From positions 2,112,001 through 2,176,000 of the forward strand of contig OZ253564.1 of NCBI GenBank assembly GCA_965262915.1: a stretch of 64,000 nucleotides of DNA, given 5' to 3'. The DNA comes from Candidatus Spongiisociaceae bacterium (GTDB lineage: Bacteria > Actinomycetota > Acidimicrobiia > Spongiisociales > Spongiisociaceae). Positions 38,446 to 42,576 of this stretch are shown piece by piece. The notes under the pieces are model-generated. The model was not told the origin of the DNA. It made no database searches and saw nothing but the letters and a program-made list of their open reading frames with translations. Position numbers and translations under genes: made by a program. Every line of letters starts with the position of its first letter. The first letter of the stretch is position 1.

Positions 38446-38517
38446 CCGTGCCATCGTCTGTCCACGCCGATGTCATAGGATGTGGACTATCACCAGAGAC
38501 CTAGGAGGCTTTCCGGC

Positions 38518-38808
38518 ATGTTCAAGCGGGTAGTTCATCCCGGTGAGATCCTCGCGGACGAACTGGCGGAGATGGGTATGACGCCTACGGAGTTCGCTCG
38601 TCAGATCGAAGTACCGCCGAACCGCATCAGCCAGATCATTGCCGGTAGGCGTTCCGTCACGGCCGACACTGCGCTACGGTTCGGACACTGGTTCGGGGTC
38701 GAGCCGCGGTTCTGGCTCAACCTACAGGCGCGGTACGCCCTGGTGATCGCCGATCAACGCGTCGGCGGCATGGTGCGCGCGTTACCGACGGCTGCTCAGA
38801 GTGCGTGA
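38518..38808 (+). CDS. higA: HigA/VapI family antitoxin (orphan)
   Basis: HPGEIL, HTH, TADTALRF, FWLNLQARY. Confidence 0.9.
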   Translation: MFKRVVHPGEILADELAEMGMTPTEFARQIEVPPNRISQIIAGRRSVTADTALRFGHWFGVEPRFWLNLQARYALVIADQRVGGMVRALPTAAQSA

Positions 38809-39136
38809 TGTCGCGAGGAACAGGGAAGACTGGCTCGATGAGATAGTCGTCGAGCAGCGATACAGATGGACCAGGCCCACTCCGACCCTGCTCGAAGGCT
38901 TGCTCCGGCAGGATCTTCCCTGCCGGATAAGACAATCCTACGCAGGCAACCACCCCGTTCTCCATGTAGCGATCGGGACCAACGGTACCCACAACTACTG
39001 GCAATGGGCCACTCTGGATCGGGAGACTTCCGAGCCATTGTCGAAAGAGGAAGCCATAGCCGGTCTCCGGAAAATCATCGAGCTGACAATGATCACGTCC
39101 AGAAGCAGCGTCGTTCCCAAGCTGATGAGCGCATGA
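38801..39136 (+). CDS. Hypothetical protein, possibly 5'-truncated, coupled to the downstream HATPase gene
   Basis: ORF whose stop overlaps the next start (ATGA, 39133-39136); no family securely recognised. Confidence 0.4.
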   Translation: MRDVARNREDWLDEIVVEQRYRWTRPTPTLLEGLLRQDLPCRIRQSYAGNHPVLHVAIGTNGTHNYWQWATLDRETSEPLSKEEAIAGLRKIIELTMITSRSSVVPKLMSA

Positions 39137-39268
39137 CGCTGGTGGATACCATCCCGATAACGTCCCCGAGGGATGTAGCCCGCCGGGCTGTCGCAACAGT
39201 TTCCGCCCCCCACAACGATCTGAAAGCTTTGGAGACCGTTATATGGCTCATCGATGCTCCTATGGTTG

Positions 39269-40499
39269 TCAAGTCGGTGATGTGGCCGGTTCGTGGGTTA
39301 GGAGCCAGGTCTGGTATTGGCTGGCGAGTTGGTGGTTGTGGTCTCGGCCGCGTTCGAGTGCGGAGATGCGGCTGGGGTGGGTTCCGAGCTGTTGGGCGGC
39401 CTGGGTGACGGTGATGTTGGCGTGTTGACGTCGGCGGCGGAGCCGGGCGCAGTTCGGGGTTGGTGGCGGGTTGGTCAGCAGTCGGTAGATCTGTGGGGCG
39501 ATGTGCCGCTTGAGGCAGCGGATGATCTCTTTTCGGTTCTTTCCTTCCCCCTGGCGCCGTGCCACGTATTGGTTGGTGGCTGCGTCGTGGCGTATCCGGG
39601 TGGTAGCGCATCGGCCAGAGCGCGTTGTTGGCTTGGCGGTTACCTCCCCGGTTGAGACGATGCCGGATGGTCTGTCCCGATGATGCCTGGACGGGGCTGG
39701 CGCCACACAGCGCCGCGAAGGACCGTTCTGATTTCATCCGCTGGGGGTTGTCGCCGGCTGCGACTAGCAGGGCGGCTGCTGTGTCAGGGCCCACACCTTT
39801 GGCGGCTAACAGAGCCGGGTTAGCCTCGGCGCAGAGGCGACGGATCTCGATCTTGAGTTCTGCGATTTCTGTGTCGAGGGCTTGGTATCGGCGGGCCAGG
39901 TAGCGTAGAGCCATCTTCGCGTACGCCGCAGTGGTCTGTGCTTGGCCGGGACGCCAGCGGGCACAGACCCGAACCCGGGCCTTGAGCTTGAGACCTCTGA
40001 GCTGGCGTTTTACCTGTTCAGGTGCGGTAACGGTCACAGAATGTATCTGGTTAGCGGCCTGGGTGCGGGCCTTGGTAGCCGAGCGGCGGGCCACCAACAA
40101 CATCCGTATGCACTCAACGGGGCCGTCACCAGATTTGGGAACTGCGGTAGCTTGCCCCGAGGCCGCTGCCCGAGCTGCCGCCTCGGCGTCGACACTGTCG
40201 GTCTTGCCGCCCCGCTGGCGGCGTAGCTGCCGGTTCGGCCGGTTCACTTCTACCACCTCGATGCCCGCCGCCATCAGATAGCGGGCTAGGCCGGCGCCGT
40301 AGCTGCCGGTGCCCTCCACTCCTACCCGGAGCAGGTGCCCGTGGGTTCCGAACCACCTGGTCATCTGCTCATATCCGACCGGATCAGCCCCGAACGGAGC
40401 GGTTCCCAGCACTCGACCGGCGTTGTCGACCACCGCCGCAACATGGGTATCACGATGGGTATCAACCCCACCGAACACAACCCGACCATCTTCTTCCAT
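39269..40499 (-). pseudogene. IS110 DEDD recombinase with C-terminal HTH; frameshift at about 39610-39615
   Basis: GVDTH, GVEGTG, KTDSVDA, PVQASSG, GNRQANNAL; continues in a shifted frame as EGK.RKEIIRCLKRHIA plus HTH. Confidence 0.9.
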
Positions 40500-40543
40500 G
40501 ACGCCTTCCTCCTCTGCGGGATAGAATCACTTCCTAATCCTCG

Positions 40544-40715
40544 GACCCGGAAGGCGGTTGGACAGGCCACTCACGGTGGAGAACTCGAAGGCTCCTATTA
40601 GGTCACATCCGCCCCGGGTCAGGGGGTTACACCCCCAAGCTGGGAACAGGCCGACAGATCGATGAAAAGGCACAAGGCCAGATTTCAGTTGGGTCAGACC
40701 CGTCCCAGCCCAGGA
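40544..40715 (-). ncRNA. IS110 bridge RNA (target-binding and donor-binding loops)
   Basis: Two stem-closed internal loops whose segments match the flanks (ACTGAAAT, TCATCGAT) and the element ends (ATAGGAGC, TGAGTGG). Confidence 0.85.
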
Positions 40716-40737
40716 ACCTTCTAAGTATGAGTGGATT

Positions 40738-42039
40738 TCAGTGGGGAGTGACGGTGGCCAATAGGTCCCAGTTGGGTTTCCCCGCGTAGAGGAGTGCCCG
40801 TATTCGGTAGTTCGCGAAGTTGCGGAACCCGAACGCGATGCGTTTGATCCTCTTGATGAGGTTGTTGAGGGCTTCGGTGGGTCCGTTGGTTACCTTCGAG
40901 ATGTGCCAGTTGGTGATCTGGGGGGTCCAGCGGGCGATGGTACGTCCGAGCTTGTTGATCTCGGGTGGGCAGGATTCGTCCTGGAGGTCGTCTGCGAGCT
41001 GGAGGGTGTATTGGAGAGCGAGGGCGGGACTGTCGACCCCGTAGATGCCTCTCACGGTTTCCTTCGCGTGCCAGGCTGTGCGCACTTCGCCGTGGGGGTC
41101 ACCAGCGTCGAGGAGTCCGCGCAGGCGGGTTTGGCCGCGGTCGCTGATCTTGTCGTGGGCGGCGGTGAGGAGCCGCCGTATCCCATAGAGTGGGTCTCCT
41201 TTCCGGCCTCTGTGTCCGAGGGTTTCGTTTTGGACTCTTCTGCGTACTTCGTCGAGACGCTGGTTGGCGAGGCGGCTGACGTGGAACGGGTCTGCTACTT
41301 GGAGGGCGTGGGGCAGCACCCTGTCATACGCCTTCCGATACGAACCGGACATGACCCGACACCGCCCAGCGGATACCCCCAAGCCAATCCGCCGGTTGTG
41401 ACCGGAACCAGGCTGCGGCGCTTTCTGCCGTTCTACCAGGGACTATGTCGATCAGCTGGTGGCCCCCAACGTCGACGACAGAGGTGCACCAGACTTTGGT
41501 GCGCCACCGGCCTTTCCGCCAGAACAACGCTTCTTGTCGATGCCCACAGCTCCGACCTCGCCTATCCGATCGGTGTCGGCTTCCAACAGGGCTTCGCCCC
41601 AGCGGACGACCTCGTTGTTCACCGTATGCCAATCACAACCCAACTCCGCGGCGACCTCGTCGATCGGACGGCCCCGCCCACCCACCTGGACGGTCACCCA
41701 CCGCGCCGCTCGGGATGTCAACAACGCCCGTTCGGGACCAATCGTGGGGTCTTGCTCGATGAACGACCTGATCCCACAGTCCGGATTCGGACACGTCCAG
41801 CGCCGTTTCCTCCACCGCAGCCGCACAGGCCGACCGAACGCCGGTAAATCCACCAACACCACACTCCGATAGCCCTTCGACCACACCGACCCGCCACATG
41901 CCACACACAACGGGCGGGCCTTGCGGGACCCGATCACCACCTCAAGAGGTGCACCCTCGCCCGGGTCGTTGATCCCCACCAGATCAACCTCGCCTAGGCC
42001 TACCAACTTCTCGCACATGCGCGTAGGATCAGCTTCCAC
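40738..42039 (-). pseudogene. ISL3 transposase with two frameshifts (about 41535 and 41355)
   Basis: Zn finger C..CG / KRRWTC..C, GID, DPFHV, TNGPTEALNNLIKRIKR.AFGFRN. Confidence 0.9.
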
Positions 42040-42576
42040 AGGGGTCCTCCTGCCTCGGATGTCATTACCAACACCCGATTATGGAGGACCCCCCATCACT
42101 TCTGGTGGATTACCACTCCCCCTGGCAGATCCCCTACTCCCCACTCATTTCCGAAGAGCCCGTTATATTCGAGTTGTGCCTGAACGTCAAGCAGTGGGCC
42201 GAAGCAGATGGCAACGTTTTCGTTGAAGAGGAAGAGAGCCGCTTTGTGATCACCGTTCAGGATCATGGAGTGGGTATTCCCGCGACTATGAGAAGGGCTT
42301 TCTCGGGGTTGAGCAACGAGGAAGCCGTCGCTCGCGCCTTGGCAGCAGGCGGTACCTCGTCGGGGCAACAGTGGCGCGGATTCGGGTTGGCGGACGCGAC
42401 AGATATGTCGAACAGGGAAGGTTTCAGCGTCTACCTGGAAACCTAAGATGTGGCGATCTGGTCCGTCGATGGCTCCCTGACCTTCAGCTACAAGAGCGAG
42501 GGTGCTATCGCGGGAACACGGATCCAGATCATCTATTCCGTCCTTTAGTAGGCCTTCGCCGGGTCGTGAATACCGC

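What the first reader, a model, noticed from the sequence alone, without database searches (positions are those of the whole stretch)
40544..40715. Fully readable IS110 bridge RNA: four guide segments match target and donor
Seen on the minus strand: the non-coding end upstream of the recombinase folds into stem GCTGGGACGGGT/GCCTGTTCCCAGC, a small GGGGG/CCCCC hairpin, and stem GACCCGGGGCGG/CCGCCTTCCGGGTC. Loop 1 holds ACUGAAAU (40689-40682, equal to the left flank plus core, 40742-40735) and UCAUCGAU (40665-40658, complementary to core plus right flank, 39255-39248). Loop 2 holds AUAGGAGC (40598-40591, equal to the right element end, 39263-39256) and UGAGUGG (40573-40567, complementary to the left element end, 40734-40728). 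Established: this LTG/RTG/LDG/RDG layout is the IS110 bridge-RNA architecture. Inferred: a programmable recombinase with target ACTGAA-AT-CGATGA and an AT core. The donor guides stop short of the core while the target guides include it.
Basis: partly seen in the sequence, partly recalled or inferred. Interest (0 to 1): 0.9.

Follow-up and report, generated by a model that had tools for sequence, protein, structure and literature searches.

The report
Bridge RNA of a nested IS110
A mobile element of the IS110 family carries a readable guide RNA whose four short segments match its insertion site and its own ends; the mechanism is already known, but here it occurs in a new lineage with about thirty copies aimed at seven different sites.

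Summary
All four short matches are at the stated coordinates, and 0 of 5000 shuffles of the non-coding stretch reproduce all four. The element is an IS110-group insertion sequence on the minus strand, nested in the terminal repeat of an ISL3 element. Its 5' non-coding end has the published bridge-RNA layout. The same genome holds 31 related copies with seven target-loop types. In 24 of 25 complete copies the target-loop guides match the copy's own flanks at 12-14 of 14 positions, and only 1 of 5040 permutations (the true pairing) reaches the observed total. Eight loci from other genomes behave alike.

Three details need correcting. Empty sites show the target is 15 nt (ACTGAAAT-CC-GATGA), not the inferred 14 nt. 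The only base shared at the crossover is a single C, not AT. The net insert is 40732-39253. The right donor guide does reach that C, and the left one could.

The recombinase of this copy is frameshifted; 11 of 17 close paralogs are intact (409 aa). One copy, c02, has the same loops but sits in an unrelated site.

Verdict: a new member of a known kind, of moderate interest.

The parts
40733..40741 (-). Left half of the target kept at the left junction. Seven bases of left target (CTGAAAT, 40741-40735) plus the target's own dinucleotide CC (40734-40733). 40733 is the shared crossover C. This lies in the right terminal repeat of the host ISL3 element.
   Evidence: Empty ISL3 ends compared with occupied ones. 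Contigs of other samples leave the window exactly at 40733 and continue as an empty ISL3 end (table 7).
39253..40732 (-). Net inserted block of the IS110-group element (1480 bp), running from ACTCAT... to ...GGAGCATC. There is a one-base ambiguity (40733-39254 is equally possible).
   Evidence: All 25 complete copies share these ends.
40724..40729 (-). -10-like hexamer CATACT in the left end. It becomes a promoter only when joined to the -35 of the right end.
   Evidence: TTGACA-17 nt-CATACT/CATAAT scores 10-11 of 12 in 11 of 14 distinct joined ends; no such site on the minus strand in situ.
40544..40718 (-). Predicted bridge RNA of about 175 nt: target loop, small linker hairpin, donor loop.
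   Evidence: Folds, covariation with flanks, and contigs of RNA libraries covering 40554-40718, 40559-40741 and 40569-40731 (weak evidence).
40637..40711 (-). Target-binding stem-loop. Outer stem 40711-40693 with 40655-40637; apical hairpin 40679-40669.
   Evidence: 90.6% of cells paired, against 42-56% with slid partners.
40680..40689 (-). Left target guide. The 9-mer ACUGAAAUC (40689-40681) equals the top strand of the left flank. U40680 could wobble-pair with the G opposite the crossover C.
   Evidence: The long register is supported by empty sites of types A, c20 and c26 and by relatives that carry C in place of this U.
40657..40665 (-). Right target guide. UCAUC (40665-40661) pairs with GATGA (39252-39248). 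G40660-A40659 pair with the C and T of the right-junction dinucleotide. U40658 could pair with the last base of the element's right arm (handshake-like).
   Evidence: The handshake concept comes from passages of PMC11208158.
40622..40636 (-). Small linker hairpin (GGGGG/CCCCC).
   Evidence: In one search it is the weakest helix, with 82% of cells paired.
40544..40620 (-). Donor-binding stem-loop. Outer stem 40620-40609 with 40557-40544; closing GAC/GUC at 40604-40602 and 40563-40561.
   Evidence: Independent folds of 9 of 9 subfamily representatives give an outer stem here with different sequences. No formal pair count was made.
40588..40598 (-). Left donor guide. AUAGGAGC (40598-40591) equals the right end 39263-39256. 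After one mismatch, UU (40589-40588) could pair opposite TC.
   Evidence: The first base is G instead of A in types c17 and c20, both in the loop and in their right ends.
40567..40573 (-). Right donor guide. UGAGU pairs with ACTCA (40732-40728), G40568 with the crossover C, and G40567 with the target-derived C40734.
   Evidence: The last base is G in types A and c26 (left junction CC) and U in five other types (left junction AC in three of them).
39093..40499 (-). Recombinase gene of this copy. It is frameshifted by one extra base at about 39609, so the frame runs on past the element's end.
   Evidence: The intact paralog is 409 aa.
39267..39272 (-). -35 hexamer TTGACA in the right end, overlapping the stop codon of the intact reading frame.
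39253..39263 (-). Right arm of the element (left donor ATAGGAGCA, 39263-39255) plus the dinucleotide TC (39254-39253) present at every right junction.
   Evidence: every copy aligned at the right end, except c16, ends ...GGAGCATC. One search confirms this.
39245..39252 (-). Right half of the target (GATGA, 39252-39248) and the last bases of the ISL3 terminal repeat (GCC).
40738..42039 (-). Host ISL3 transposase gene, broken by stops near residue 196.

Best explanation
The locus is the left non-coding end of an IS110-group insertion sequence. The element lies on the minus strand (net insert 40732-39253) inside the right terminal repeat of an ISL3 element. The left end encodes a bridge RNA of about 175 nt (about 40718-40544).

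Shown here: the sequence, the fold, the family of the protein, the covariation with flanks, and the empty sites.

Inferred by analogy with IS621 and CazIS110-1, in four steps.
(1) When the element's ends are joined in a circle, TTGACA of the right end and CATACT of the left end form a promoter that drives the RNA and the recombinase.
(2) The first loop reads the target. [quoted passage not shown]
(3) The second loop reads the joined ends. AUAGGAGC pairs with the right arm and UGAGUGG with the left arm.
(4) A recombinase tetramer with a DEDD plus serine active site exchanges strands just after the shared C.

The base before that C stays target-derived at the left junction and is always T at the right junction.

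This copy cannot make its own full-length enzyme. Its RNA and ends are intact, so it could be moved by the intact paralogs in the same cell, which are 93-98% identical in DNA.
For: The four matches are verified and exceed chance: 0 of 5000 shuffles reproduce all four.

Protein. The window ORF carries DEDD_Tnp_IS110 (1.3e-24) and Transposase_20 (1.6e-15). The intact paralog P0001 scores 200 bits on NCBIfam NF033542 'IS110 family RNA-guided transposase' (cut-off 140). It matches the solved bridge recombinases ISCro4 (2.4e-13) and IS621 (1.5e-10). IS621 D11, E60, D102, D105 and S241 align with D13, E62, D101, D104 and S274 (residue names from passages of PMC11208158).

Layout. The strand polarity is as published (passages of PMC11208160).

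Covariation in this genome. There are 31 copies, of which 25 have both end landmarks, falling into seven target-loop types. 24 of 25 match their own flanks at 12-14 of 14 positions. The cognate total is 95 of 98, the non-cognate mean is 6.2 and maximum 10, and 1 of 5040 permutations reaches the total.

Covariation in other genomes. Of 30 loci, 10 carry the loop anchors and 8 have both flanks. These score 11-14 of 14, and 4 of 720 permutations reach the total.

Empty sites exist for five types and fit one rule.

Folds. 9 of 9 representatives fold independently into the same two stem-loops, with different stem sequences. In the target stem-loop 90.6% of cells are paired, against 42-56% when partners are slid.

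Junction promoter.

RNA-library contigs cover the RNA region in two metatranscriptome runs and one run guessed to be RNA.

The same frameshift base is present in c00, c01 and c03 at different loci. This fits spread of a defective copy in trans.
Against: One copy, c02 (98% identical, same loops), sits in an unrelated site and scores only 6 of 14.

The recombinase of this copy is frameshifted, and no promoter-like site precedes the RNA in situ.

The RNA evidence consists of contigs only. There is no strand, no ends and no level, and DNA may be present in those libraries.

No Rfam family matches at E <= 1.

The donor loop and the element ends hardly vary. Donor-side covariation rests on one A/G position and one G/U position.

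Stem covariation in the target stem-loop is modest. Four pairs change on both sides, a number reached by 42 of 500 shuffles. The donor stem was not formally counted.

Pairing at the crossover is imperfect. The left target guide reaches the C only through a U-G wobble in types A, c20 and c26. The left donor guide needs one mismatch.
Confidence: 0.9

Rival explanations
1. Fossil copy. The RNA is still readable only because the element is young. This copy is inert and its RNA is neither made nor used.
For: The recombinase is frameshifted. The host ISL3 is also broken. No promoter-like site lies upstream in the integrated state.
Against: All four guides and both ends are identical to those of copies with intact enzyme. 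The same extra base occurs in c00, c01 and c03 at three loci, so the defective form was copied after it broke. RNA-library contigs cover the region, one with 1 difference in 163 nt (weak evidence).
Confidence: 0.2
2. The internal matches are protein-binding sub-terminal repeats read as DNA, not RNA guides.
For: The donor-side motifs are nearly invariant, as protein sites would be.
Against: The target-side segments match sequence outside the element and change with the insertion site in seven types. The protein belongs to the family shown to use the RNA.
Confidence: 0.03
3. An ordinary structured 5' leader that regulates recombinase translation, with the four matches arising by chance.
For: The fold is only mildly better than shuffles (z = -2.2). 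The RNA runs straight into the ribosome-binding site.
Against: 0 of 5000 shuffles give all four matches. Covariation with flanks is seen in two data sets.
Confidence: 0.02

Closest known systems
IS621 of Escherichia coli (IS110 group; Durrant et al. 2024, PMC11208160; Hiraizumi et al. 2024, PMC11208158; passages read)
   Same: The RNA lies in the left end, upstream of the recombinase. There are two stem-loops with internal loops, target loop first and donor loop second. [quoted passage not shown] A promoter is rebuilt across the joined ends. The second base of the core is invariant and the first is variable. The catalytic residues are conserved.
   Different: The shared base is C, preceded by a base that differs between donor (T) and target (A or C); IS621 has a CT core on both partners. 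The left target guide is used in two registers, ending on the C or one base before it. The window copy has no evident 5' stem-loop. There is a small hairpin between the loops. The recombinase has an extra C-terminal helix-turn-helix. Protein similarity is remote (E 1.5e-10).
ISCro4 transposase (PDB 9t56)
   Same: It is the best solved-structure match to the intact paralog (E 2.4e-13) and has the same two domains.
   Different: It is only distantly related, and I read no paper on it. Its RNA was not compared.
CazIS110-1 of Caloranaerobacter azorensis (Sun et al., bioRxiv 10.1101/2025.10.25.684509; abstract and passages read)
   Same: That work reports copy-out and insertion of the top strand only. 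The fixed junction asymmetry here (left = target base, right = donor T) is what such a mechanism would leave behind.
   Different: Nothing was measured here. The asymmetry could equally mean that this base lies outside the exchanged overlap.
IS1111 group elements (as described in PMC11208160)
   Same: Same recombinase family and the same principle of RNA-guided site choice.
   Different: Their RNA lies in the right end and they have long sub-terminal inverted repeats. Here the RNA is in the left end, so this is an IS110-group element.

Membership tests
IS110 family recombinase | N-terminal DEDD (RuvC-like) domain plus C-terminal Tnp domain | tested here: met
   Window ORF: PF01548 1.3e-24 and PF02371 1.6e-15, the latter cut at profile position 69 of 87 by the frameshift. 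Intact paralog: 2e-24 and 3.8e-19.
IS110 family recombinase | Curated family model above its cut-off | tested here: met
   NF033542 scores 200.2 bits against a cut-off of 140, for the paralog P0001. The window copy itself was not scanned against NCBIfam.
IS110 family recombinase | Catalytic D, E, D, D and S residues | tested here: met
   The alignment to IS621 chain 8wt6_A places D13, E62, D101, D104 and S274 opposite its catalytic residues (residue names). The same motifs lie before the frameshift in the window ORF.
IS110 family recombinase | Uninterrupted reading frame in this copy | tested here: not met
   There is one extra base at about 39609. The ORF is 464 aa and runs out of the element, against 409 aa in 11 of 17 close copies.
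IS110-group bridge RNA | Encoded in the left non-coding end, upstream of the recombinase | tested here: met
   The RNA region is 40718-40544 and the start codon is at 40499.
IS110-group bridge RNA | Two stem-loops with large internal loops | tested here: met
   9 of 9 representatives; target stem-loop only. The donor stem rests on independent folds, not on a pair count.
IS110-group bridge RNA | A 5' stem-loop before the two loops (consensus of 103 orthologues) | tested here: inconclusive
   The window copy has only about 7 nt before the first stem. Types c17, c20 and c21 carry about 50 extra nt there, which I did not fold.
IS110-group bridge RNA | [quoted passage not shown] | tested here: met
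   Match lengths are 9(+1), 5(+2), 8(+2) and 5(+2) nt.
IS110-group bridge RNA | The target loop covaries with the insertion site across relatives | tested here: met
   1 of 5040 permutations; 4 of 720. The exception is c02.
IS110-group bridge RNA | The donor loop matches the joined ends | tested here: met
   Exact matches of 8 nt and 7 nt. One A/G change is shared by the loop and the right end in c17 and c20. There is little variation to test.
IS110-group bridge RNA | The core is included in all four pairings | tested here: inconclusive
   The right target guide and right donor guide pair with the shared C by G. The left target guide reaches it by a U-G wobble in this type. The left donor guide reaches it only after one mismatch.
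IS110-group bridge RNA | A promoter rebuilt across the joined ends | tested here: met
   By sequence only: TTGACA-17-CATACT, and none in situ.
IS110-group bridge RNA | The RNA is made, binds the recombinase and directs recombination | not testable with these tools
   The only data are contigs of RNA libraries over the region.
Rfam families | A match to a curated covariance model | tested here: not met
   0 matches at E <= 1 in 38500-42500. I do not know whether Rfam 15 holds a bridge-RNA family.

The most novel reading that the evidence does not exclude
This genome is a natural reprogramming series. At least seven target-loop specificities share one donor code, so any of the RNAs could move any copy.

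That would explain c02. It has type-A loops, but its site fits the type-c21 loop at 12 of 14 positions if a one-base offset is allowed. It would also explain the spread of a frameshifted copy to at least three loci.

In addition, the base before the crossover C is always target-derived on the left and always T on the right. It is informative in 23 of 25 copies and is never reversed. This would be a footprint, in wild genomes, of insertion by the top strand alone.
Probability: 0.35. Interest if true: 0.6.

Novelty: new member of a known kind. Interest (0 to 1): 0.4.

Why it matters
The mechanism itself was published in 2024, so finding one more bridge RNA is not a discovery.

The value here is the setting. 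One closed genome holds 31 related copies with seven target specificities. Filled and empty sites can be compared for five of the types.

That gives a hand-checkable, natural data set on three questions. How do target loops get re-aimed? How much register slip is tolerated at the crossover (9-mer ending on the C, or one base before it)? Which strand's sequence survives at each junction? The last point bears on the current dispute between dual-strand and top-strand-only insertion.

It also shows insertion sequences using the ends of other insertion sequences as landing pads. Of the 32 ISL3 right ends found by one pattern, 15 are filled.

Tried and rejected
Rfam search of 38500-42500 found nothing at E <= 1.

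Sixteen empty ISL3 ends here and two in a second genome have the 15-nt form.

I considered a second model in which type-A elements begin one base earlier (with a C) and use 14-nt targets. It would make c02 a clean 14-nt site of type c21, and one unoccupied 14-nt ISL3 end does exist. I rejected it for three reasons. Nine empty sites of type c26 and the empty sites of type c20 also have the extra base. Types c17 and c20 have identical donor loops yet would then need different left ends. The ISL3 left repeat also carries CC.

I considered a 'half-match' off-target event for c02 (abstract of 10.64898/2026.08.31.748434). I saw no half of its own loop that fits (5 of 9 and 1 of 5), but I did not read that paper's definitions in full.

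RNAalifold on the MAFFT alignment A1 recovered the target stem-loop but mis-paired the donor loop, because the 3' strand is badly aligned. I did not use that part.

Folding from the very first base of the element pairs the left end with the right donor guide. This is expected from the design and is irrelevant if transcription starts after the -10.

Twenty of the 30 loci from other genomes lacked my loop anchors and were not analysed. Most are 50-56% identical proteins.

Parts of the element without cover in RNA-library contigs: no conclusion was drawn.

Supplements of the papers were not available. Durrant et al.'s tables of predicted bridge RNAs may already list relatives of this element.

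Two literature searches found no paper on this element family. That is all the claim 'not in print' rests on.

Full report
WHAT IS THERE. On the minus strand the window holds an ISL3-family element. Its transposase gene is at 42039-40738. Pfam finds Zn_ribbon_ISL3, HTH_Tnp_ISL3 and DDE_Tnp_ISL3, and the frame is broken by stops near residue 196.

Immediately after the stop codon of that gene, inside the ISL3 terminal repeat, sits a second element. It ends eleven bases before the ISL3 tip (GGCTCATCGAT on the plus strand at 39245). Its long ORF (40499-39093) carries DEDD_Tnp_IS110 (1.3e-24) and Transposase_20 (1.6e-15). The second match is cut at profile position 69 of 87. The rest of the protein lies in another frame (39706-39269), which also holds a helix-turn-helix (HTH_31, 3e-8).

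THE OBSERVATION. The stretch folds into the three stems named (-81.9 kcal/mol, z = -2.23, 4 of 200 shuffles as good). In 5000 dinucleotide-preserving shuffles of 40535-40718, the four matches were reached 34, 24, 9 and 645 times (the last scored as a 6-mer). Two occurred together 5 times, and all four never.

RELATIVES IN THE SAME GENOME. The window lies in a single 5.06-Mb contig. A blastn search with the element finds 31 copies longer than 1100 nt, at 70-98% identity. Alignment of their ends shows that every copy with a left end starts ACTCAT.... Every copy aligned at the right end, except c16, ends ...GGAGCATC.

Twenty-five copies have both landmarks. The six dropped are c16, c18, c19, c24, c29 and c30.

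Both loops are framed by conserved motifs. UGACC(C/U)A precedes the left guides and CUGUC follows the right guides. The GAC of the first motif pairs with the GUC of the second. Between these frames the first loop differs among seven types, and the second loop barely differs.

COVARIATION WITH THE FLANKS. For each copy I compared two things. The 9-mer on the 5' side of loop 1 was compared with the nine bases ending at, or one base before, the junction. The five variable bases on the 3' side were compared with the five bases after ...GGAGCATC.

Twenty-four of 25 copies score 12-14 of 14. With one representative per loop type, the cognate total is 95 of 98. Non-cognate pairs average 6.2 (maximum 10). 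Of all 5040 permutations, only the true one reaches 95.

On the donor side, the first base of the left donor guide is G instead of A in types c17 and c20, and so is the matching base of their right ends.

In other genomes, a protein-based scan returned 30 loci, all in MAG records and most of them titled Acidimicrobiia or Acidimicrobiales. Ten carry the loop anchors and eight have both flanks. Those score 11-14 of 14. Their six loop types total 72 of 84, reached by 4 of 720 permutations; three of the types have near-identical targets.

THE STRUCTURE. Nine representatives of the subfamilies were folded one by one. Each gives a long outer stem, an internal loop with the guides on its two sides, and an apical hairpin. 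This holds for both stem-loops, and the stem sequences differ.

On alignment A1 (17 distinct sequences) the first stem-loop plus linker hairpin has 90.6% of cells paired, against 42-56% when partners are slid by 1-3 columns. Covariation proper is modest: four pairs change on both sides, a number reached by 42 of 500 shuffles.

The donor stem-loop was not counted formally.

WHERE THE CROSSOVER IS. Empty sites settle this.

Of the ISL3 right ends found by one pattern, 15 are filled, 16 are empty with ...ACTGAAATCCGA[T/A]GAGCC, and one is empty with one C fewer. A sixteenth filled end, c13, has a variant flank. A second genome has two filled and two empty ends of the same 15-nt form. Contigs from other samples leave the window exactly at 40733 and continue as an empty ISL3 end (table 7).

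Filled sites read ...AAATCC|ACTCAT......GGAGCATC|GATGA.... The insert is therefore ACTCAT...GGAGCAT plus one C, and only that C is shared by the two junctions.

The same rule holds for the other types that have empty paralogs.
- c25: ...GTAAC|ATGAC.
- c27 and c28: ...AAAAC|GTGGG.
- c17: ...AAATC|CTTGG.
- c26: nine empty sites, ...GAAAC-C-CGGGG.
- c20...AAATT-C-CCCAC.

The right target guide keeps one register throughout: five variable bases, then G opposite the C. The left target guide has two registers. In c17, c21, c25 and c27 its ninth base is the C. In types A, c20 and c26 the 9-mer ends one base earlier, and the next RNA base, a U, faces the G opposite the C. Relatives in other genomes carry C at that RNA position (L031, L034), which supports the longer register.

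The remark that the donor guides stop short of the core falls with them.

A FIXED ASYMMETRY. The base before the shared C is C or A at the left junction, the same as in the empty sites. It is T at every right junction. It is informative in 23 of 25 complete copies, all but c17 and c20, where the target also has T. The reverse arrangement is never seen.

The RNA follows the products, not the substrates. The bases after the right target guide (G-A-U) pair with the right junction ...A-T-C. The last base of the right donor guide is G where the left junction has CC, and U in the three types where it has AC. This resembles the handshake pairing described for IS621 (passages of PMC11208158).

The pattern is what insertion of the top strand alone would leave. 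That mechanism is reported for CazIS110-1 (10.1101/2025.10.25.684509; abstract and passages). The pattern would also arise if that base simply lies outside the exchanged overlap. I cannot tell these two readings apart.

EXPRESSION. Joining the right end to the left end brings TTGACA (39272-39267) 17 nt from CATACT (40729-40724). Eleven of 14 distinct joined ends score 10-11 of 12 against the consensus, and the other three score 8-9. The integrated state scores 7-9. The tool's scan finds no site on the minus strand in situ. This matches the published rebuilding of a promoter across the core, and the published RNA of about 177 nt (passages of PMC11208160).

Of 24 public runs listed, two are on record as RNA and two more are guessed to be RNA. 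Their contigs cover 40554-40718 and 40559-40741 (X18), 40588-40790 (X20) and 40569-40731 with one difference (X17, guessed RNA). Contigs show neither strand nor ends, and DNA may be present in those libraries. This is weak support only.

THE ENZYME. Eleven of the 17 closest copies have an intact 409-aa frame. The window copy has one extra base at about 39609. That base is shared by c01 and c03, and c06 has the same 464-aa read-through length.

The intact paralog P0001 passes NCBIfam NF033542 (200 bits, cut-off 140). It aligns with the solved IS621 and ISCro4 proteins with all five catalytic residues in place. It has a C-terminal helix-turn-helix (residues 351-386) beyond the end of those proteins. 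The relatives of 50-56% identity align only up to about residue 350.

THE EXCEPTION. Copy c02 (L004) has the same loops as the window copy. It lies just after the stop codon of another transposase gene, and its flanks score 6 of 14. Among the seven loop types of this genome, the best fit to its site is type c21: 8 of 9 at a one-base offset plus 4 of 5. All types share the donor code, so a type-c21 RNA could have placed a type-A element there. That is an inference, not a result. An off-target event is the alternative.

VERDICT. This is a correct first-stage call of a known system in an undescribed lineage, with the core and target mis-set by one base. Two literature searches found nothing on this element family. 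Supplements, which might list it among predicted bridge RNAs, were closed. Novelty: new member of a known kind. Interest: 0.4, earned by the within-genome series of loop types and by the junction asymmetry rather than by the RNA itself.

Noticed in passing
It is unoccupied. In the short register it would match both target guides perfectly. Its origin is unknown: a point deletion, or some imprecise event.
   Followed up: partly
L004 (G000:C1:3663635-3665111, minus strand): Copy c02 has the same loops as the window copy and an intact 409-aa recombinase. It is inserted after the stop of another transposase gene, at a site that fits the type-c21 loop better than its own (12 against 6 of 14).
   Followed up: partly
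window 39269-39706 (minus strand); P0001 residues 351-386: The recombinase clade carries a C-terminal XRE-type helix-turn-helix (HTH_31, 2.8e-7). It is absent from the solved IS621 and ISCro4 proteins and apparently from relatives of 50-56% identity. Its function is unknown.
   Followed up: partly
window 40738-42039 (minus strand): The host ISL3 transposase gene is itself broken, with two stops and an out-of-frame stretch near residue 196.
   Followed up: no
L001, L002, L003 (and probably L007): The same extra base that breaks the recombinase frame occurs in copies at different loci. The defective form was therefore copied after it broke.
   Followed up: partly
L025, L030 and G000:C1:3640028-3641339: Three copies (c24, c29, c30) lack the target loop. 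Unrelated sequence runs up to the left-donor-guide motif itself, as if that DNA, which mimics the element's right arm, had served as a recombination site. The same unrelated sequence, ending in a right-arm-like motif, abuts a type-c25 target elsewhere.
   Followed up: no
G000:C1 near 67,890, 3,670,480 and other places: A dispersed repeat carries the type-c27 target and, about 10 bases further on, the type-c17 target. One repeat is thus a landing pad for two loop types. The type-c25 target is the end of a second ISL3-like transposase gene.
   Followed up: no
L017 (G000:C1:4175385-4176831): Copy c16 is cut short near its right end by an inverted ISL3 end. ISL3 therefore also inserts into the IS110 element, and the nesting goes both ways. 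L008/L019 hold a nested or tandem array of two types.
   Followed up: no
alignment A1, columns 3-56 (L018, L021, L022): Types c17, c20 and c21 have about 50 extra bases between the -10 and the first stem. This may be the 5' stem-loop of the published consensus, which the window copy lacks.
   Followed up: no
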